Virus record (IMG/VR): IMGVR_UViG_3300046534_001193
Span: 17,992 to 81,991 of that record
Direction: 5' to 3' (one strand)
Origin: a virus
DNA: 64,000 nt
The position numbers and the translations under genes are program-made. Under the pieces are notes generated by a model. That model made no database searches. It worked only from the letters and a program-made list of their open reading frames with translations, and had not been told where the DNA came from. Shown here piece by piece: positions 461-54,268 of this stretch. Each line of letters starts with the position of its first letter. Positions within the stretch are counted from its first letter, which is position 1.

Positions 461-2209
461 ATGGCCTTATCACCCAAGTTGCAAGGATTCTCTGATCGAG
501 TAGCCGCTATCGCCGACAGATCCACAGCAATGACTCGATTGTCTGAATGGATGCAGAAAAACCTTAGGCTAAACGGCCGGCCGTACAATTTTAACAAGCA
601 CGAGATGCAACGAGCTATTGCGGAAGACCAGCACCCGCACAAAGCGGTTAAGAAGTGCTCACAGGTTGGGCTTACTGAGCTATCGCTTAGAACAGCTGCA
701 GCGTTGGCAGCGGTTACTCGTTCTCGCATAATCTATGTGTTTCCTTCAGCTACTTTCTCTCAAAAAGTGTCAGCTGACCGTTTTTTACCTATTGTTAAGG
801 ATTCTCCAACGCTTTCGGCTATGCAGCACAATGAGGTTAAGTCCTCAGCGATGCGCAAACTAGGCAATAGCACAGTTTACTTCGTAGGTGCCTCAGGCAC
901 GACTCAGGCAATATCAATACCGGCCACTCATCTAATAATTGACGAAGAAGACTTCTGCGATATGGTTGTGCTTGGGCAGTTTAACGCTCGTCTTCGACAT
1001 GCAGAAGAAGACCCAAAAACAGGGCTTAGGGGCGTCCGTCAGCGGTTCTCTACGCCGACTATTCCTAACTACGGCGTCAGCAGGCATTTTAATAACTCTG
1101 ACCAGAAATCGTACACTGTGAAGTGCTCAAAGTGCAATACGACTCAGGTTCCAGATTATTACAACGACTTCGTAGTGCCTGGCTATGATGGTGCCATGGC
1201 TATGTTTGGTAAGGCCGATTTAAATAACCCTAAATTCCAAGTGGATAAGACTTATATCAAGTGCAATAAATGTGGTCAAGACTTGTGGAAAGATTTAATC
1301 GATCCGTCTAGGCGGGCGTGGGTGGCTAAATACCCTGACCGAATAATGATGTCTGGTTACCAAGTATCACCGATCGACGTGCCTGAGTATAACAAGGCTG
1401 CTGCCATAGTTAGGCAGTTGGAAGATTTTACTACTCAAGACCATAGAAACTTTGTCTTAGGCAAAGAGCACGAAGATACCAACAATTCTTTCTTGCAGTC
1501 GGTATTTAAGAACTGCACTGACGCTTTATTTCTATCATTGTCGGAGGCTAAGCAAACTACTTTATCAGGCATAATAATGGGAGTCGACATTGGCAAAGTG
1601 TCTCATTACATGATAGGTAAACGGCCAGAAGTAGGTGGTAAGCGTATTGACATAATTGCTATTGGAACGATATCGATTAATAACGGTACGTTGGCCGAGC
1701 AGCTTCAAGTGCTTATAGATGGCTACAATATTCATTTGACAGTATTGGATGCGGGGCCAGATTTTAGTACGCCTCAGACTTTGATAGCCGATAACTTGCA
1801 TGGCTCTGTGTATGGCTGTGAGTATTACCGTAAGGTGTCGGCTTCTTACAGCAACGTTATGCCAGACCCTGAAACAGGCGTAGTCAAGGCTGACCGCTCA
1901 GGCACCTTAACGGATGCTATGAGGGCGCACAACTCTGGTCATTTTCGTTATCCTGCGGCGCAAGTCGAAGAAGTCAAAGAAGTTAAATTACACTTGGAAG
2001 AGACTAAGAAAGTCACCAAGGTTGGCGAGATGGGTGATTCTTCTAGTTTCCCCAAAACAGGCAAAGCCGACCACTACGCGCATGCGCTTAACTACCTAAA
2101 GATCGCGGATGAAATTGCGCATGAGCACTCTACAAACTTGAAAGGTGTACCCGCCATGCCTAGTATCACTTGCGTAGTGATCGGCAGCGGAAGAGCCAAG
2201 CGCTCTTGA
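461..2209 (+). CDS. terL: terminase large subunit, lambda GpA-like
   Basis: KCSQVGLTE Walker A variant, LIIDEED Walker B, FSTPT motif, CxxC pairs, C-terminal nuclease GVDIG...DHYAHA. Confidence 0.92.
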   Translation: MALSPKLQGFSDRVAAIADRSTAMTRLSEWMQKNLRLNGRPYNFNKHEMQRAIAEDQHPHKAVKKCSQVGLTELSLRTAAALAAVTRSRIIYVFPSATFSQKVSADRFLPIVKDSPTLSAMQHNEVKSSAMRKLGNSTVYFVGASGTTQAISIPATHLIIDEEDFCDMVVLGQFNARLRHAEEDPKTGLRGVRQRFSTPTIPNYGVSRHFNNSDQKSYTVKCSKCNTTQVPDYYNDFVVPGYDGAMAMFGKADLNNPKFQVDKTYIKCNKCGQDLWKDLIDPSRRAWVAKYPDRIMMSGYQVSPIDVPEYNKAAAIVRQLEDFTTQDHRNFVLGKEHEDTNNSFLQSVFKNCTDALFLSLSEAKQTTLSGIIMGVDIGKVSHYMIGKRPEVGGKRIDIIAIGTISINNGTLAEQLQVLIDGYNIHLTVLDAGPDFSTPQTLIADNLHGSVYGCEYYRKVSASYSNVMPDPETGVVKADRSGTLTDAMRAHNSGHFRYPAAQVEEVKEVKLHLEETKKVTKVGEMGDSSSFPKTGKADHYAHALNYLKIADEIAHEHSTNLKGVPAMPSITCVVIGSGRAKRS

Positions 2210-2262: not shown

Positions 2263-3726
2263 ATGCCTACTAAGCCATCCAAAGCCAATCCGATAGTTCT
2301 CCCGAAGTTGACTAGCACAGTCAAGTCGAGAACTGTCGAGTCGAAAACGCCTAAAGATGCGTTAATCCCTAATCAGCAGAACCATTACTCTACCCGTGAT
2401 CCAAAGACGTTACGCGCGCAAGGGTTAGTTACCGAAGCAATCAGGGTTCTGTCGAAAGAGAACGGCAATTTAAGTACCTCTGTTTACAACATGGTGCAGG
2501 TAGCTGACTCGGGGTGGAAAGTGGCAGCTTACTTGCCTAGCACTTCCGAATTCTCAGAAGAAGGCACGATGCTGGCTAAGAACGTGATAGCTTCGATGGA
2601 TACCCTTCATGACTATACTGAGGGTTTCGGTAGGAAGCGGCCTATCCCTATGGTTGTCCAAACGTTGCTAAGGGAAAACATTCTTACAGCTGGCTGTGCT
2701 ATCGAGTTAGTTTTAGACGAAGGTTTGTATCCTGACCGGCTCCAAGTAGTTGACTATTCAACTTTAAAGTGGGCGTCGGATGGTAAAGGGTCTAGGTATC
2801 CTGTTCAGACAGGGTTTGAGAGCGGCGCATTTGGTGGCGACCCAGGTATCGATATCCCACTTGATATTGCGACTTTCTATGCCGAGACTTTGCACTTGGA
2901 AGCTGACACAGCCTACGGCACATCAATACTTCGGGCTGCCTTAGATTCGTCATTTGCGTCTTCTGAATTTATAGCCGACATGCGCAGAAGCTTGTTTAAG
3001 TCAGGCCACTCGCGGCTAACTGCTACCTTAGACACAGCTCGAATTGCGGCAACGGCTACGGCGGAAGTAAAAAAAGATCCGGTTAAACTGGCGACGTATT
3101 TGAACACAGTCAAAGGTGAAGTGGAAACAGCCTTAGCAGATATGTCGCCGGAAGACTCAGTTGTGGCTTTTGATACTGTCGAGTTCAAGACTGAGGACAT
3201 AGGCGGCACAAAGTCGGATTACACCGGTTTGCTGGCGGCCATAAACAACCAAGAAGCGACGGCTCTTAAGACTCCGCCTTCTATACTTGGCATGCGCTCG
3301 GCGGGCTCACAGAGCTTGTCTAATTCAGAAACCCTCATATTCCTTAAAGGTGCAGCAGCGATACAGACGCCGGTCGAGTCAATACTTAGCCGAGCTTTGA
3401 CGACTGCAGTGAGACTTTACGGTAGTGACGTCTACGTCAAGTTTAAGTTCAATCCAATAGATCTTCGGCCTGAGTCTGAGCTAGAAGCTTTCCACACTAT
3501 GAAGGAAACTCGCTTTCTTACGCGTTTGAGTCTTGGCATTATCACCGATGCACAGTTTTGTTACGAGATGGATATTCCGTATAATCCTGCGGCGCCTAAG
3601 CTGTCAGGAACTAACTTTCAAGCTAGCGGTGGCAGTCAGTCTACGCAGACTACTCGCGGTCCTATGGAAGACAATTTGCAGCCAGGCAGCGACATACCGC
3701 GCAATGGCGGAGGTAGCAGCCAATGA
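2263..3726 (+). CDS. portal protein
   Basis: 487 aa, between TerL and protease; YGTSILRAA and PPSILG portal-like segments. Confidence 0.8.
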   Translation: MPTKPSKANPIVLPKLTSTVKSRTVESKTPKDALIPNQQNHYSTRDPKTLRAQGLVTEAIRVLSKENGNLSTSVYNMVQVADSGWKVAAYLPSTSEFSEEGTMLAKNVIASMDTLHDYTEGFGRKRPIPMVVQTLLRENILTAGCAIELVLDEGLYPDRLQVVDYSTLKWASDGKGSRYPVQTGFESGAFGGDPGIDIPLDIATFYAETLHLEADTAYGTSILRAALDSSFASSEFIADMRRSLFKSGHSRLTATLDTARIAATATAEVKKDPVKLATYLNTVKGEVETALADMSPEDSVVAFDTVEFKTEDIGGTKSDYTGLLAAINNQEATALKTPPSILGMRSAGSQSLSNSETLIFLKGAAAIQTPVESILSRALTTAVRLYGSDVYVKFKFNPIDLRPESELEAFHTMKETRFLTRLSLGIITDAQFCYEMDIPYNPAAPKLSGTNFQASGGSQSTQTTRGPMEDNLQPGSDIPRNGGGSSQ

Positions 3727-3768: not shown

Positions 3769-5283
3769 ATGCTTAACCAATTTAACCACAATAACGCCTC
3801 TTTCTGGCTTGGCACTCCCGCCAGTTACGAGACAGTTATCTCTGCCCAAGCAAAAATTCAAGAGCATTCAGCGCGAGGCCATTACGACGAAGACGAAGAT
3901 AAAATGTCTTCACCGATCTTGTCTATATCTGAAGGTATAGCAACAGTAATGGTTCACGGCTCTCTGACTTCTGAAGACAGCTTTTACAACCAGATGTTCG
4001 GCATTACTTCTTACAACGAGATTAGAAACGCTATTATAGAAGCCGTTGGCTCTATGGAAGTCAGTCGTATTGTTTTGGACATTGACTCACCTGGCGGATC
4101 AGCCAAAGGTATCGATGACTTAGGCGACTTCATAAAGTTTGCTAGTGCACGCTTACCAATTGTAGCGCACGTATCGGGCGAGGCTTTATCGGCAGCTTGC
4201 TGGATAGCGACTTCTTGTGACAGCATCACTGGTTCACGTATGTCGCAGCATGGCAGCATAGGCGTTATAGCAGTATTGCAAGAAATTACTAAGATGGCGG
4301 AAGACCAAGGTGTTAAATTCCACGTTTTTCGTGCGGGCAAGTACAAGGCGATCGGAAGTCCTTACGAAGAATTGACTGATGAGTTTCGAGAGATTATACA
4401 AGCTCAAGTCGACACTATCGAAGGCTTCTTTTTAGATGCTATTTCAGATAATAGGGGCATCCCTCGCGGTTCGGTCAAAGCCCGAGTCGGCGAAGGTTTA
4501 ACGTTTTTTGCTGCAGAAGCAGTGGACAAGGGGCTATTAGACGAAGTATTATCCATACAGGACTTGCTTACTAGACTAATAAGCCTGTCAAATTCAAACC
4601 CGAGAGGGCTAAATGCATCTACCGAGGAAACATCAATGGCCACTAAAGCCTTAACTGCAAAAGCTTCAGCTGCATTGGCCGCTGGTGCATCCGATGAAGA
4701 AATCAACGCACTTCTTTCCGCTGCTAGCGAAGAAGAACTTACTGCTGAGCAGATCGCCGCTAATCTGGCTGCTGCCAAGTTAGAAGGTGAAGGCGCAGGT
4801 GAAGAACTTACTGCTGAGCAGATCGCCGCTAATCTGGTCGTCGAAGGTAAAGGCGTAGAACTTACCGCTGAAGAGTTGGAAATTAAAGCTGCGGCAGATC
4901 TAGCCGCAGCTCCCACCGCTCCAGTCGTAGATCATTTGGTCACTTATCTTAAAGAAGAAAACCAAACACTCCGGCAAAAAATTACAGGCTTAGAGTCTGA
5001 CAGTTTGAAACTTGCGGAACTAAATACAATGATTCCTCAGCTGAAAGCTGCGCTTGGCGAATACGTCTCAGGCATGTCGGTCCGCTTAGGTGGATCGCAT
5101 TTGGACACTTCTTCGTTGGAACTTCCTTCTCTGATGGCGCAATACACTAGCACTCGAACGGCTATGTTAAAGCGTTATCCTGTCGGTGGACAAGCCAACG
5201 TCGACGATTCAGAGTCAGATAGCTCTGATGCTGACACTGCAACCGTTACTTACATGCGTTCTGTTAAACAGAACACTATCTAA
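3769..5283 (+). CDS. S49 (SppA/ClpP-like, lambda gpC-type) prohead protease with C-terminal scaffold region
   Basis: LDIDSPGG, ALSAACWIA (catalytic Ser), GSIGV, AGKYKA motifs; acidic Ala/Glu-rich helical C-terminus. Confidence 0.9.
   Translation: MLNQFNHNNASFWLGTPASYETVISAQAKIQEHSARGHYDEDEDKMSSPILSISEGIATVMVHGSLTSEDSFYNQMFGITSYNEIRNAIIEAVGSMEVSRIVLDIDSPGGSAKGIDDLGDFIKFASARLPIVAHVSGEALSAACWIATSCDSITGSRMSQHGSIGVIAVLQEITKMAEDQGVKFHVFRAGKYKAIGSPYEELTDEFREIIQAQVDTIEGFFLDAISDNRGIPRGSVKARVGEGLTFFAAEAVDKGLLDEVLSIQDLLTRLISLSNSNPRGLNASTEETSMATKALTAKASAALAAGASDEEINALLSAASEEELTAEQIAANLAAAKLEGEGAGEELTAEQIAANLVVEGKGVELTAEELEIKAAADLAAAPTAPVVDHLVTYLKEENQTLRQKITGLESDSLKLAELNTMIPQLKAALGEYVSGMSVRLGGSHLDTSSLELPSLMAQYTSTRTAMLKRYPVGGQANVDDSESDSSDADTATVTYMRSVKQNTI
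4636..5283 (+). CDS. nested in-frame scaffolding protein (Nu3-like)
   Basis: Internal GAGGA RBS then ATG 4636 in frame (MATKALTAK...), as in lambda C/Nu3. Confidence 0.65.
   Translation: MATKALTAKASAALAAGASDEEINALLSAASEEELTAEQIAANLAAAKLEGEGAGEELTAEQIAANLVVEGKGVELTAEELEIKAAADLAAAPTAPVVDHLVTYLKEENQTLRQKITGLESDSLKLAELNTMIPQLKAALGEYVSGMSVRLGGSHLDTSSLELPSLMAQYTSTRTAMLKRYPVGGQANVDDSESDSSDADTATVTYMRSVKQNTI
4732..4875 (+). repeat. internal direct repeat in scaffold (EELTAEQIAANL x2 plus degenerate third)
   Basis: gaagaacttactgctgagcagatcgccgctaatctgg at 4732 and 4801. Confidence 0.9.
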
Positions 5284-5315
5284 CCTACTGTTTAATTTAA
5301 CGAGGACACTCTATT

Positions 5316-5780
5316 ATGGGCACTACAATTCAAGAACGGACAATGACAGTCGATACCAAATTTATGGGTATCGTTACTGATAAGCTGGGCACTACTGCGG
5401 GCGATTACACTGATAAAGAGCTAGGCAAAGGCGTCAAGATGGCAGCCAACGCTTACGTACCTGTGGTTGCAGGCGACGAAATCGAAGGCATTGTTAATAC
5501 CGTTGAGCCTGGCACTAAAAATTCTGGTTACAACTGGGGCGGCGTACAAACTACAGGCCGCGCAGAAGCTACTGTTGGTGCCAACCAAGTTACCACTATC
5601 AACATTGGAAATTTTGTCCTCAATGACACTCCTATAGATGCTGGCACTGCCGGCTTAATCCAGGTTTACGACGAGGATGGCGATGGTGCTGCTGCACCGA
5701 CTAAGTTCCTTTGGCGCGTTATTAGAATTCTTACTGGCACGGGTATTGCCGGTGATAAAGTTCTGATCGAACGCGCTTAA
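5316..5780 (+). CDS. head decoration / cement protein
   Basis: Small Gly/Thr-rich beta protein between protease and capsid (lambda gpD position); GAGGA RBS. Confidence 0.7.
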   Translation: MGTTIQERTMTVDTKFMGIVTDKLGTTAGDYTDKELGKGVKMAANAYVPVVAGDEIEGIVNTVEPGTKNSGYNWGGVQTTGRAEATVGANQVTTINIGNFVLNDTPIDAGTAGLIQVYDEDGDGAAAPTKFLWRVIRILTGTGIAGDKVLIERA

Positions 5781-5817
5781 ACCAGCCATTCAACTTTAAT
5801 AATTCTGGAGAACCAAC

Positions 5818-7008
5818 ATGTCATACGATACAAAATTTAAATTTACAGACCTTAACGGCAAACTACAGGAAGGCGGAATTACTGTCCAATCTTACGCAGA
5901 GGCTGCCGCTAAAGGGTTGAGTTTGTCCCAGCACATGGCTCAGAAGTTCCCGACCGACGAAACTAAGTATGGGCCTATTTTGGCACAAGCCATGGCTTCA
6001 ATTGGTTTAAATGTACGTCCTGACAATGTTACCGGTGTTCCTTCCACCAAGTTGTCTAGCGCTTTTTCAATGAATCTGGGTGCAATTACGTCTCCTGACG
6101 GCACCGGAAATGGCACACCTGCGGGGCGTTTGTTCTTTCCTGAGGTAATCCTGCAAAGTATTGCAAAGGAATTGACGGAAGACAAAGGTGACTTTTTTGC
6201 TGGCTACGAAAGTTTGCTGAGTGGCAGCGAGAGCGTTAACGCGCCTGAGTTTAAGCGGGTGCGAATTGACAACACTGCACCTGAAGCTTCGGCGTCTATG
6301 GCAACATCTCAGTTGGCTGAACCTTCCGTCATGGTAAAAGTGACAGCAGCTGATACTACCACACCGATTCCGACCAAAGGTATTGGCTTGCTAGTTTCTG
6401 ACCAGGCTTTACAGCATACCAGCTTCGATCTTGTCAACACGATTATGATGGCTCAAGCTCGAGGCGAGCGAATTCGCATGGTAGAAGACCAGCTTGACGA
6501 CGTGTTCAACGGTAACACTGATTTGGCCGGCATGGCTGCTTTACCTACGTTCAATGCCGACACTTTGGATGCCACTATCGCTGCTGACGGTGTTCTTACC
6601 CAGAAAGCGTGGATTCACTTTCTCCGCCAGAATTATCAGAAGATGACAGTGACAAACATCGTTTGTACGCTTAACACTGCGCTAGCGATTGAAGGCCGTA
6701 CCAATAAGCCTACCAACGTGGTGGATGATCCTAACAGTCCTCGTATTGACAGCTTATTCAACATCGACAATCTCGGCATTACTGCTCCAAGAGTTTTCTT
6801 GGTAGGCACAAACGTTTTACCTGATAACCGAATGGTTGGTTTGGATAACGCTTACGCCTTACGTCGGTACATTAACGTCTCGGCTTCTTACGAAGCAATC
6901 GAGTCGTTCGTAATTCGTCGTGCTACAGCTTTTCGAGTAGACCATGGTGAGGCGTTAACGCGTCTTTTTGACGACGCCTTTACTGTCATGGATTTGACTG
7001 ACACTTAA
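5818..7008 (+). CDS. major capsid protein
   Basis: 396 aa, GGAG RBS, follows decoration gene, followed by strong terminator. Confidence 0.85.
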   Translation: MSYDTKFKFTDLNGKLQEGGITVQSYAEAAAKGLSLSQHMAQKFPTDETKYGPILAQAMASIGLNVRPDNVTGVPSTKLSSAFSMNLGAITSPDGTGNGTPAGRLFFPEVILQSIAKELTEDKGDFFAGYESLLSGSESVNAPEFKRVRIDNTAPEASASMATSQLAEPSVMVKVTAADTTTPIPTKGIGLLVSDQALQHTSFDLVNTIMMAQARGERIRMVEDQLDDVFNGNTDLAGMAALPTFNADTLDATIAADGVLTQKAWIHFLRQNYQKMTVTNIVCTLNTALAIEGRTNKPTNVVDDPNSPRIDSLFNIDNLGITAPRVFLVGTNVLPDNRMVGLDNAYALRRYINVSASYEAIESFVIRRATAFRVDHGEALTRLFDDAFTVMDLTDT

Positions 7009-7030
7009 TAGAAAGTTTTATTGGTGTTTT

Positions 7031-7058
7031 AAAAAGCCGCCTTCGGGCGGCTTTTTAT
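7031..7058 (+). terminator. rho-independent terminator (possibly bidirectional)
   Basis: aaaaagccgcc-ttcg-ggcggcttttt. Confidence 0.9.
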
Positions 7059-7144
7059 TGTCAACAGCCGATAAAATAAAAAGTATATTTGTAAACAAGT
7101 TAGGTGTAGAGTAGAGATCTAATCGAGACAACCAAGGTGTATTT

Positions 7145-7351
7145 ATGAAACCAGTTAGCCTAGCAGAAAAATTTTCAGCGGAATCGCCAGATGACCCACG
7201 CTTCTTACGCCGACAAATTAAATCCTCAAGCTCTTATCCAGAGATTGAAAAATTCGTAGTGCGTCCTGCCAAAGTAGTTATGCTTGAACAGGACGAGTCT
7301 TTGAAGGGCGTGTTTGACGCTGCCTTTACTCTCATGCCTTTTAATGACTGA
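7145..7351 (+). CDS. 68-aa truncated paralog of the major capsid C-terminus
   Basis: 21/44 ungapped identities with capsid LRRYINVSASY...FDDAFTVM; AAGGTG RBS; flanking DNA duplicates capsid end and half terminator. Confidence 0.75.
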   Translation: MKPVSLAEKFSAESPDDPRFLRRQIKSSSSYPEIEKFVVRPAKVVMLEQDESLKGVFDAAFTLMPFND

Positions 7352-7386
7352 CACTTAACAGCGGCTTTTTATTGTCAACAAGTCAA

Positions 7387-7415
7387 TGGACATTAACTTG
7401 TTAAGCGGTTAGTAT
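7387..7415 (+). promoter_or_regulatory. putative sigma70 promoter for neck genes
   Basis: TGGACA-17bp-TAGTAT. Confidence 0.5.
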
Positions 7416-7467
7416 TAGTGAGCTTATGTTCAAACACAGGCCTAACCAATTAACCAGGATAAATAAT

Positions 7468-7782
7468 ATGTCGCGTTCTAAGCCTAATAAAGGGACTACC
7501 CTTAGCCTAGCCAAGGTGGAAAAAGAAGAAGCCGAAGCAGCTGACGCTAGGGCAGTTTTGGAAAAAGAAGAAGGTGAAGCTGCCGCAGCCAGAGCGGCTT
7601 TTGAAAAAGCTAAAGCAGCCAACACAATAAAAACAGTCACTTTATTGCTCGGCTCGCAAATAACTGACCCAGGCACTGGTGTAATTTTAGTAAAAAACAA
7701 AGCAGTAATAGTTCCAGAAATTTCTAAATGGGTTAGAATGCAAGCTGGATTCACACCTCCTTACTTAACTTTTACGGAGTAA
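7468..7782 (+). CDS. small head-associated/packaging accessory protein
   Basis: AGGA RBS before ATG 7468; EKEEAEAADARA repeat; position after capsid. Confidence 0.55.
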   Translation: MSRSKPNKGTTLSLAKVEKEEAEAADARAVLEKEEGEAAAARAAFEKAKAANTIKTVTLLLGSQITDPGTGVILVKNKAVIVPEISKWVRMQAGFTPPYLTFTE

Positions 7783-7788
7783 TTAGAA

Positions 7789-8271
7789 ATGGCCAAATCT
7801 TTTTTAGGGCTAGTGACCGTAGACGAAATTCGCGGATCACTCGGGTTGGACGCAAAAGACATAAGCGATGCCATAATGGCTAGCCAATCACCTGAAAAAG
7901 ATTTGCAAGCTGATCTATTAACATGGGTTTCTACCTATCAGACTATAATTTCTGAAGGGGCCGCCACTACACCGACTACTGCGCAGACTCTGAAATATCT
8001 CAAGTTGCAAAACTATTCCAAATATTTCATTGCTGCCATATTCGCCTCTTCTGGTATGGTCTCAATATTTCAGAGTATGTCTGATGGGAAGAATCAATTT
8101 ACACGATTCTCTAATGGTTCATTGAAAGATCTCCAGCTGGACCTAAAATCAAAGGCTGCATCGGCGAGATCTGAATTAGAGGCCCTAATCGATCCTGATC
8201 AAGTAGCTACTTACACCCAGTTTTCTCGGGTGGTTTCTTCTTACGACCCAGTCACAAACGCAACTACCTAA
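7789..8271 (+). CDS. head-tail adaptor (connector)
   Basis: 160 aa helical protein, VTVDEIRGSLGL start, synteny. Confidence 0.6.
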   Translation: MAKSFLGLVTVDEIRGSLGLDAKDISDAIMASQSPEKDLQADLLTWVSTYQTIISEGAATTPTTAQTLKYLKLQNYSKYFIAAIFASSGMVSIFQSMSDGKNQFTRFSNGSLKDLQLDLKSKAASARSELEALIDPDQVATYTQFSRVVSSYDPVTNATT

Positions 8272-54238: not shown

Positions 54239-54268
54239 ATATTACCAGCCAGCGCTCTTCTTTGTCAA
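54239..54268 (-). promoter_or_regulatory. sigma70 promoter
   Basis: TTGACA-18bp-TAATAT with TGn extension. Confidence 0.7.

What the first reader, a model, noticed from the sequence alone, without database searches (positions are those of the whole stretch)
7145..7380. Mini-capsid gene directly behind the major capsid terminator
LRRQIKSSSSYPEIEKFVVRPAKVVMLEQDESLKGVFDAAFTLM aligns without gaps to capsid LRRYINVSASYEAIESFVIRRATAFRVDHGEALTRLFDDAFTVM (21/44 identical by hand count). The DNA after it repeats tgactgacacttaa (6995/7345) and gcggctttttattgtcaaca (7047/7361), but the terminator's left arm is deleted. It has a new N-terminus, RBS and upstream region. About 50% divergence with no stop or indel in the aligned part suggests selection on a 68-aa capsid fragment: decoy, assembly modulator or size regulator.
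Basis: partly seen in the sequence, partly recalled or inferred. Interest (0 to 1): 0.75.

Follow-up and report, generated by a model that had tools for sequence, protein, structure and literature searches.

The report
Capsid-tail mini-gene in a phage cassette
A phage carries, just behind its major capsid gene, a 68-codon gene whose last 53 codons are an old, much-changed copy of the capsid gene's own end; it seems weakly kept by selection, and what it does is unknown.

Summary
ORF 7145..7351 (68 aa) matches the last 53 residues of the major capsid protein (MCP, 5818..7008) at 23/53 without gaps, E 2e-12. The 14-nt and 20-nt repeats are exact, and the terminator's left arm is missing from the second copy.

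It belongs to a 314-nt cassette (7067-7380) bounded by the 20-nt repeats. The copy comes from this phage lineage's own MCP, not a foreign one. It occurs only in a narrow clade: nine distinct versions, all with open frames. It is absent from 68 more distant relatives.

Other tests give modest support. dN/dS against an orthologue is 0.34, p about 0.03-0.08. Residues kept from the MCP are preferentially invariant within the family, p 0.003.

Against function: it evolves 2-4 times faster than the MCP, lost 2 of 3 family-invariant residues, has a rewritten end in one lineage, and has no confident fold.

Verdict: probably a young, weakly constrained gene born by partial duplication (about 0.5); a neutral relic is nearly as likely. 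Function is untested.

The parts
5818..7008 (+). Major capsid protein gene (396 aa), HK97 fold; the parent of the duplicate
   Evidence: phrog_3922 major head protein, E 2.5e-47. PF25209 at 26.1 bits, just under its cut-off of 27. AF2 model mean pLDDT 79.8. Foldseek top hits are HK97-type capsids, E 2e-10 and weaker.
6844..7008 (+). Parental segment: MCP codons 343-396 plus the stop
   Evidence: Aligned to mini residues 16-68. Among 10 MCPs of the >=90% identity cluster only 1 column (344) of the last 53 varies.
7030..7062 (+). Intrinsic terminator of the capsid gene (GC hairpin plus T run)
   Evidence: Inverted repeat 7030-7041 / 7046-7057, 100% complementary. Fold -21.7 kcal/mol, z -3.6.
7047..7066 (+). 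Left 20-nt direct repeat (terminator right arm, T run and first half of the palindromic motif)
   Evidence: Exact repeat of 7361-7380.
7067..7144 (+). Leader of unresolved origin, with a perfect copy of the genome-wide motif TTGTAAACAAGT at 7089-7100 and AAGGTG at 7134-7139
   Evidence: Motif statistics. Leader 90% identical (121/135) to that of L005. No significant similarity to the region downstream of the cassette or to upstream MCP sequence.
7145..7351 (+). Mini ORF, 68 aa: codons 1-15 are new (7145-7189); codons 16-68 derive from the MCP tail (7190-7348); stop TGA
   Evidence: Nine distinct orthologous versions of 66-68 aa.
7345..7358 (+). Copy of the 14 nt around the MCP stop, read in another frame because of a 4-nt insertion
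7361..7380 (+). Right 20-nt direct repeat, a remnant terminator arm; with 7381-7383 it completes the motif TTGTCAACAAGT (7372-7383). Recombination hot spot.
   Evidence: Breakpoints in relatives at 7364-7367: the L005 deletion, and X4 and X3 contigs. An X5 contig fits up to 7066 and then continues into 7381-7395.
7468..7782 (+). Next gene (104 aa, no family); probably co-transcribed with the mini ORF, since no terminator lies between them
   Evidence: Homologues follow the MCP directly in L001 and L002. No hairpin at 7340-7400.

Best explanation
The mini ORF is a young, lineage-restricted protein-coding gene. It arose when the last 53 codons, the stop and the 3' flank of this phage's own major capsid gene were duplicated just behind the capsid terminator. 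The copy was joined to a 123-nt leader that supplies a copy of the phage's palindromic regulatory motif, a ribosome-binding site and 15 new codons.

Shown: the whole 314-nt unit is bracketed by two copies of a conserved 20-nt element (terminator T run plus motif). That element is also where relatives show deletions, replacements and loss, so the unit behaves as a gain-and-loss cassette.

Shown: the copy lost its own terminator hairpin. Inferred: it is therefore read through into the downstream head-completion genes.

Modest statistical support: the product is under relaxed purifying selection, concentrated on the residues it still shares with the capsid protein's C-terminal beta-strands.

Inferred, not shown: the peptide has no fold of its own. 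It acts, if at all, by presenting those capsid-like strand residues to a partner that normally meets the capsid C-terminus, such as a neighbouring capsid subunit or the protease-scaffold. That would make it a low-level accessory modulator of head assembly, and a dispensable one.
For: Origin. At the 16 sites where the outgroups L001 and L002 agree with each other but differ from the window's MCP tail, the mini copy has the window state at 10, the outgroup state at 2 and neither at 4. Third-position identity is 24/49 to the window's tail, against 13/49 and 17/49 to the outgroups. A reverse-transcriptase model finds nothing in the genome.

Distribution. Nine distinct versions of 66-68 aa, all open and all starting MKPVSLAEKFS. 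By equal contig length, 6 of them pair with MCPs of the >=90% identity cluster. The copy is absent behind the MCP in L001 and L002. It is also absent in 0 of 68 further relatives that have >=500 nt downstream, while the window as positive control scores E 5.6e-11.

Selection. Window against L005 over 60 codons: 8 synonymous and 10 non-synonymous changes, dN/dS 0.34. Binomial p is 0.034; simulation gives P(<=9 residue changes) = 0.077. Positions that still carry the MCP residue are invariant in the mini family in 18/21 cases, against 12/28 for diverged positions, Fisher p 0.003. Without the 3' end the counts are 15/17 against 11/25, p 0.0045. Of the 22 codons that keep the same residue, 8 differ synonymously from the MCP, so this retention is not recent gene conversion.

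Expression signals. AAGGTG (GAGGTG in L005) lies 5 nt before the ATG. A perfect copy of a motif found 10 times in the window against 1.33 expected (0 of 100 shuffles reach 10) lies 56 nt before the ATG.

Cassette behaviour. The L005 lineage has a 41-nt deletion ending at 7365. One X4 contig has 1 difference in 369 nt from 7367 onward but 100 unlike letters before it. One X5 contig fits up to 7066 and then continues with 15 letters identical to 7381-7395.
Against: The selection signals are small-sample. Only two DNA sequences of the mini gene were available. One test has p 0.077, and codon positions 6/2/10 give p 0.07.

An open frame is weak evidence here. 18 random substitutions create a stop in only 43% of simulations, and 56 substitutions leave the 49 codons open in 20%.

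The gene evolves fast. Pairwise residue divergence is 6.6-21%, against 3.3-5.6% for the MCP of the same contigs and 0-1 differences in the parental 53 residues.

It lost 2 of the 3 residues in this segment that are invariant in 69 MCP relatives (R373 to M/I, D375 to E), and 6 of the 15 columns that are >=80% conserved.

The L005/P0139 lineage, seen on 4 contigs, has a frame-shifting deletion that replaces the last residues, including the shared TLM. One relative appears to lack the cassette (a single contig).

The fold prediction is poor: mean pLDDT 52.5, pTM 0.15.

Mini-gene nucleotide divergence against L005 (10%) equals that of the flanking non-coding DNA. There is no transcript or peptide evidence of any kind.
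Confidence: 0.5

Rival explanations
1. Neutral relic. The cassette is a by-product of illegitimate or repeat-mediated recombination at the terminator/motif element. The ORF stays open only because it is short and fairly young. Any translation has no consequence, and the unit is being eroded and lost.
For: Fast evolution relative to the MCP. Loss of MCP-invariant residues. A 3' frame-shifting deletion in one lineage and apparent absence in another. An open frame is not improbable by chance. Differences against the MCP are not significantly uneven over codon positions, p 0.18. Pairwise dN/dS against the MCP tail is 0.33; if the synonymous changes are split evenly between the two branches (my arithmetic) it rises to about 0.66 on the mini branch. 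No confident fold. Distribution limited to one narrow clade.
Against: Retained positions are preferentially invariant, p 0.003, which strict neutrality does not predict. dN/dS is 0.34 between orthologues. The 11 N-terminal residues, the start codon and the Shine-Dalgarno sequence are kept in every version seen. All 9 versions remain open.
Confidence: 0.35
2. Regulatory cassette with an incidental ORF. What selection keeps is the extra copy of the palindromic motif plus a terminator-less leader, which changes transcription or translation of the downstream head-completion genes. The ORF is a leader peptide or a passenger.
For: The cassette splits the original motif at 7066/7067 and supplies a perfect new one at 7089, while the right repeat restores the motif before the next gene. 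The element is conserved in the relatives for which sequence at this place was seen: window, L005 and an X4 contig, plus an X3 contig without differences over 7364-7400. L001 has the same terminator-then-motif arrangement behind its MCP. Leader and ORF show the same 10% divergence.
Against: This does not explain why residue-level retention tracks the MCP-derived positions, or the excess of synonymous change. The motif's function is unknown, and on this strand no convincing -10 box follows it (by eye).
Confidence: 0.1
3. Scar of a module exchange. The fragment is the 3' end of a different, distantly related capsid gene left behind when the present capsid gene was brought in by recombination.
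For: High divergence from the resident MCP tail (43% residue identity, pS 0.6) next to identical flanks.
Against: The fragment shares lineage-specific nucleotide states with the resident MCP (10 against 2 of 16 sites) and is closer to it than to the outgroups at third positions. It lacks residues invariant in 69 family members, so it did not diverge as part of a working capsid gene. An exhaustive phmmer search of 1.84 billion representatives found no capsid protein closer to it: 3 hits at E<=0.001, of which one is its own family and two are long proteins of 3331 and 1147 aa matched in many stretches (their best in the mini's N-terminal part), which I did not examine further.
Confidence: 0.03

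Closest known systems
PeSL cassettes of T4-type phages (promoter-early stem-loop units that mediate modular shuffling of small non-essential genes; Arbiol et al. 2010, PMC2839356, abstract read; Comeau et al. 2014, PMC4122927, search listing only)
   Same: A small ORFan-like gene is bracketed by copies of a composite stem-loop/terminator plus regulatory-motif element. Close relatives differ by presence, absence, deletion and replacement with breakpoints at that element.
   Different: This phage has a siphovirus-like module with a tape-measure protein and is not T4-type. The motif is a different sequence of unknown activity. The site lies inside the core head operon, not a hyperplastic region. 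The cargo is a fragment of the adjacent core gene. Mini-circles and promoter or terminator activity were not testable.
Full-length capsid paralogues and capsid homologues that co-assemble with the MCP (T4 gp24 vertex protein, recalled; SaPIbov5 Ccm size-redirecting protein, seen only as the title of PDB entry 7rwz)
   Same: A second gene derived from, or related to, the major capsid protein is encoded alongside it.
   Different: Those are complete HK97-fold proteins that occupy lattice positions. The mini ORF covers only the last 53 of 396 residues, lacks family-invariant residues and has no predicted fold.
SaPI1 CpmB (a small protein reported to act as an alternative internal scaffold by resembling the C-terminus of the phage scaffold; recalled from memory, no paper read here)
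   Same: The concept of a peptide of about 70 aa that imitates the C-terminal part of a morphogenetic protein.
   Different: CpmB is satellite-encoded, helical, and imitates the scaffold rather than the capsid protein. No binding or size effect is shown here.
Chimeric new genes from partial tandem duplication
   Same: The 3' part of one gene acquired a new 5' end and signals next to its parent.
   Different: The expected source of the 5' end, the downstream gene's start region, could not be confirmed. N against D alignment scores are reached by 151/1000, 241/1000 and 515/1000 shuffles.

Membership tests
HK97-fold major capsid protein (phrog_3922 / PF25209) | Significant match to the family profile | tested here: not met
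   The mini ORF has 0 families in Pfam and 0 in PHROGs at E<=0.1. The MCP itself matches phrog_3922 at 2.5e-47.
HK97-fold major capsid protein (phrog_3922 / PF25209) | Complete fold (N-arm, E-loop, P and A domains) | tested here: not met
   Only MCP residues 343-395 are represented. In the MCP model these are strands 348-353, 369-382 and 388-392. The mini alone gives mean pLDDT 52.5.
HK97-fold major capsid protein (phrog_3922 / PF25209) | Residues invariant in the family within the covered segment (D343, R373, D375 in 69 sequences) | tested here: not met
   D343 is kept (D16). R373 became M/I and D375 became E.
PeSL-type mobile regulatory cassette | Repeated composite regulatory motif flanking the gene | tested here: met
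   20-nt exact repeats on both sides. The motif TTGTMAACAAGT occurs 10 times in the window against 1.33 expected.
PeSL-type mobile regulatory cassette | Insertions, deletions or replacements between close relatives with breakpoints at the motif | tested here: met
   The L005 deletion ends at 7365. X4, X3 and X5 contigs break at 7364-7367 or at 7066 (single contigs each).
PeSL-type mobile regulatory cassette | Sigma-70 promoter and terminator activity of the unit; circular excision products; T4-type genome | not testable with these tools
   No activity or circle data. The genome is not T4-type by its module content.
Diversity-generating retroelement (template and variable repeat at a gene's 3' end) | Reverse transcriptase nearby; mismatches confined to adenines of the template | tested here: not met
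   No PF00078 match in the 81,991-nt genome. Of 56 differences, 17 are at A in the mini copy and 9 at A in the MCP tail.
Chimeric gene from a simple tandem duplication (5' end from the downstream gene) | Leader and first codons homologous to the region after the right repeat | tested here: inconclusive
   Only a shared 10-mer and the motif were found. Alignment scores are not above shuffles. At this level of divergence homology could be undetectable.

The most novel reading that the evidence does not exclude
The peptide is a functional capsid mimic. It has kept just the strand-forming residues of the capsid C-terminus and evolves quickly in a gain-and-loss cassette. It would act in one of two ways: by tuning head assembly through binding a capsid-tail partner, or as a decoy that occupies a host immune sensor which recognises the capsid protein. 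Capsid-sensing defences exist, for example CapRel (PMC9712102, seen in a search listing only). This would be the first capsid-fragment accessory gene of a phage.
Probability: 0.12. Interest if true: 0.8.

Novelty: new variant of a known kind. Interest (0 to 1): 0.4.

Why it matters
If the peptide is made and selected, it is a clean, datable example of gene birth in a virus. A fragment of the most conserved structural gene became a separate small gene with its own signals, inside the core head operon. That would open the question of whether capsid fragments are used to modulate assembly or to confuse capsid-sensing host defences. If it is a relic, it still documents a conserved terminator-plus-motif element acting as a recombination hot spot inside a structural operon, outside the T4-type phages where such cassettes were described. 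Either way the practical lesson is that an open frame at about 50% divergence over some 50 codons is not evidence of selection by itself.

Tried and rejected
No relatives found in several collections:
- Phage GenBank collection: no match by blastn (distant mode, 5300-7800) or by tblastn with the mini protein. The tool warns that near records may be left out.
- Viral contigs searched with the mini protein: 27 pattern matches, none a relative.
- Metagenome contigs: 162 pattern matches, 1 relative, which is L005.

Tools that gave no usable result:
- Expression: no RNA holder is listed among 9 runs, so nothing can be said about transcription.
- Run X5 has no cover over 7070-7365. I do not use this as evidence of absence; only the loose end at 7066 is used.
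- Complex prediction of MCP with the mini (alignments A4 and A5): no verdict, score 0.00. This is neither for nor against binding.
- ESM Atlas: no usable feature hit, and the structure rows rest on a model of pLDDT 0.52.
- Rfam on 6800-7600: 10 matches, all below gathering scores and all over the terminator region 6924-7102, none inside the mini ORF.

Hypotheses tested and not supported:
- Origin of the leader. Against the downstream region, upstream MCP sequence and the L002 flank, scores are not above shuffles. Against L001 only the motif matches, 20 of 500 shuffles. Against the own genome only motif-sized matches appear: 15 nt exact at two sites, and 25-29 nt at 86-88%.
- DGR reading rejected.
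- Foreign-capsid scar rejected.

Literature: searches listed no paper describing a capsid C-terminal fragment gene behind the capsid gene. One search failed on a format error and was re-sent. These were two word searches of open-access text, not proof of absence. Supplements are closed and were not needed.

Full report
SETTING. The window is part of an 81,991-nt virus record rated complete. The + strand carries a siphovirus-like morphogenesis module:
- large terminase (461..2209)
- portal (2263..3726)
- S49 head-maturation protease with a long C-terminal extension (3769..5283)
- a 154-aa protein with no family (5316..5780)
- the major capsid protein, MCP (5818..7008)
- the mini ORF (7145..7351)
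- proteins of 104, 160 and 296 aa, a tail terminator, a tail protein and a tape-measure protein

The MCP matches phrog_3922 at E 2.5e-47. Its AF2 model has mean pLDDT 79.8. Its best structural matches are HK97-type capsids, with E 2e-10 and weaker and query TM about 0.40-0.45.

The 68-aa ORF aligns without gaps to MCP residues 343-395 at 23/53 identity, E 2e-12. The 14-mer around the MCP stop and the 20-mer that ends its terminator recur exactly behind the mini ORF. Thirty-six nt, including the terminator's left arm, are missing from the second copy, which no longer folds as a hairpin. A 4-nt insertion shifts the frame near the end, so the mini ORF stops at TGA inside the repeated 14-mer. A Shine-Dalgarno-like AAGGTG precedes the ATG by 5 nt.

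WHERE IT CAME FROM. At nucleotide level the 49 cleanly aligned codons differ at 56 of 147 sites, with pS 0.61 and pN 0.31. The two outgroup phages L001 and L002 have MCPs 67-68% identical to the window's. At the 16 sites where they agree with each other but differ from the window's MCP tail, the mini copy carries the window state at 10, the outgroup state at 2 and neither at 4. Its third codon positions match the window's tail at 24/49, against 13/49 and 17/49 for the outgroups. The fragment therefore derives from this lineage's own capsid gene after the split from those relatives. This rules out a scar from a foreign capsid gene.

Two further results agree. The fragment lacks R373 and D375, which are invariant in 69 family members. 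An exhaustive search of 1.84 billion representatives found no capsid protein closer to it.

A diversity-generating retroelement is also excluded. The genome has no reverse transcriptase, and mismatches are not confined to adenines.

The 123 nt in front of the capsid-derived part (7067-7189) could not be traced. A simple tandem duplication would predict similarity to the start region of the downstream gene. That similarity is limited to a 10-mer and the regulatory motif, and it is not above shuffled controls.

THE CASSETTE AND ITS BORDERS. The unit 7067-7380 (314 nt) lies between the two 20-nt repeats. Each repeat contains the terminator's right arm, its T run and the first half of a palindromic motif, TTGTMAACAAGT. 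This motif occurs 10 times in the window (up to 1 mismatch) against 1.33 expected; 0 of 100 shuffles reach 10.

The insertion point splits the motif behind the capsid terminator. The leader brings a perfect new copy at 7089, which is 56 nt before the mini ATG. The right repeat rebuilds the motif at 7372, before the next gene. L001 has the arrangement expected before insertion: terminator, then the motif, then the next gene.

The right repeat is a recombination hot spot in relatives:
- The L005 lineage has a 41-nt deletion that ends at 7365.
- An X4 contig shows 1 difference in 369 nt from 7367 onward, but before that has 100 unlike letters. The 30 shown encode the ...PFDS end of the P0003 type.
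- An X3 contig replaces 7291-7363 with 130 other letters.
- An X5 contig fits up to 7066 and continues with 15 letters identical to 7381-7395, which is the cassette-less junction.

Each of the three X observations rests on a single contig, laid at 80% likeness. This behaviour resembles the PeSL cassettes described for T4-type phages (PMC2839356, abstract read). However, this phage is not T4-type and the motif's activity is unknown.

DISTRIBUTION. Searches found nine distinct versions of the mini protein: eight of 68 aa and one of 66 aa. The mini copy is absent behind the MCP in L001 and L002. I then analysed 80 loci from viral contigs with MCPs 37-69% identical; these include the contigs of L001 and L002. 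None of the 68 with at least 500 nt downstream has a second copy of its own capsid tail next to the gene. Two marginal hits (E about 0.02) lie elsewhere, in L057 and L079. The window, used as positive control, scores 5.6e-11. The gene is therefore confined to one narrow clade.

IS IT SELECTED? Random substitution to the observed divergence leaves the 49 codons open in 20% of trials. The spread of differences over codon positions (17/14/25) is not significantly uneven, p 0.18.

Orthologues allow better tests.
- Window against L005 over 60 codons: 8 synonymous and 10 non-synonymous changes, dN/dS 0.34. The two downstream genes give 0.15 and 0.10, and the last 18 MCP codons show 6 synonymous and 0 non-synonymous changes. 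The deficit of non-synonymous change has binomial p 0.034; a simulation that keeps the transition bias gives p 0.077.
- Across the nine versions, positions that still carry the MCP residue are invariant in 18/21 cases, against 12/28 for positions that have diverged from the MCP (Fisher p 0.003). Leaving out the 3' end gives 15/17 against 11/25, p 0.0045.
- Eight of the 22 same-residue codons differ synonymously from the MCP, so the retention is not recent gene conversion.
- All versions keep the start codon and the first 11 residues.

The evidence on the other side is substantial.
- The protein diverges by 6.6-21% between contigs whose MCPs differ by 3.3-5.6%. The parental 53-residue segment shows 0-1 changes.
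- It has lost 6 of the 15 well-conserved MCP columns.
- One lineage, seen on 4 contigs, has a frame-shifted C-terminus.
- Its overall nucleotide divergence equals that of the flanking non-coding DNA.
- Its predicted structure is not confident, pLDDT 52.5.

My reading is relaxed purifying selection on a young gene, at about even odds. A near-neutral relic is the main rival.

HOW IT MIGHT WORK. Shown: the copy has its own ribosome-binding site and an upstream copy of the regulatory motif, and it has no terminator. Any transcript that starts at or passes the leader therefore continues into the head-completion genes.

Inferred: the retained residues map to the three C-terminal strands of the MCP model, 348-353, 369-382 and 388-392. 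A peptive of this kind, with no fold of its own, could only act by pairing those strands with a partner that normally contacts the capsid C-terminus. That points to a role in assembly or to a decoy role. No computation here supports or contradicts binding.

UNEXPLAINED. In the window the 14 nt around the stop are identical between the two copies, although nearby synonymous sites are about 60% different. In the L005 MCP and in the X4-type mini copy the same stretch has changed. Constraint on the T run and motif probably explains the 20-mer. The 14-mer may reflect a short conversion tract or chance.

Noticed in passing
window 7089, 7372, 24087, 38887, 45726, 45753, 46751, 54262, 60368, 61012: The palindromic motif TTGTMAACAAGT occurs 10 times (up to 1 mismatch) against 1.33 expected, with more copies in the rest of the genome. 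In the block of minus-strand replication genes its complement reads ACTTGTTGACAA, that is a TTGACA -35 box. By eye, TAATAT, TACTAT or TAAACT follows 17-18 nt downstream at 54262, 38887 and 61012, and stem-loops lie beside several copies. It is probably part of the phage's early promoters or an operator. Among 74 related loci only L007 (the same contig as L001) has it behind the MCP.
   Followed up: partly
protein P0135 (relative of window 5818..7008 and of 7009-7125): One MCP of the >=90% identity cluster is 435 aa long. Both stop codons are lost, and translation runs through the terminator and into the leader of the cassette, adding 39 residues. It could be a natural read-through variant or a sequencing error. 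It shows that this contig also carries the leader.
   Followed up: no
window 7517-7600, inside the 104-aa gene: A 42-nt tandem repeat (2 copies, 76% identical) encodes EKEE..A..A..ARA units. Contigs in runs X2 and X5 carry 56 other letters in place of 14 here, and L005 has a 6-nt insertion nearby. The repeat number or length therefore seems to vary among relatives.
   Followed up: no
window 3769..5283: The S49 head-maturation protease has a C-terminal half of about 200 residues, rich in A/E/L, with an internal repeat (EELTAEQIAANL twice). It looks like a fused scaffold domain. No separate scaffold gene is evident between the portal and the MCP.
   Followed up: no
window 5316..5780: A 154-aa protein between the protease and the MCP is conserved in L001 and L002 (153-154 aa) but has no Pfam or PHROG family. 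It is a candidate decoration or head accessory protein.
   Followed up: no
window 7367-7735 against an X4 contig; 6700-7489 against an X2 contig: Sharp mosaic boundaries appear among co-occurring relatives. One contig is nearly identical (1 difference in 369 nt) downstream of the right repeat but unlike upstream of it. Another is identical over 790 nt. This indicates frequent recombination among these phages at the terminator/motif element.
   Followed up: partly
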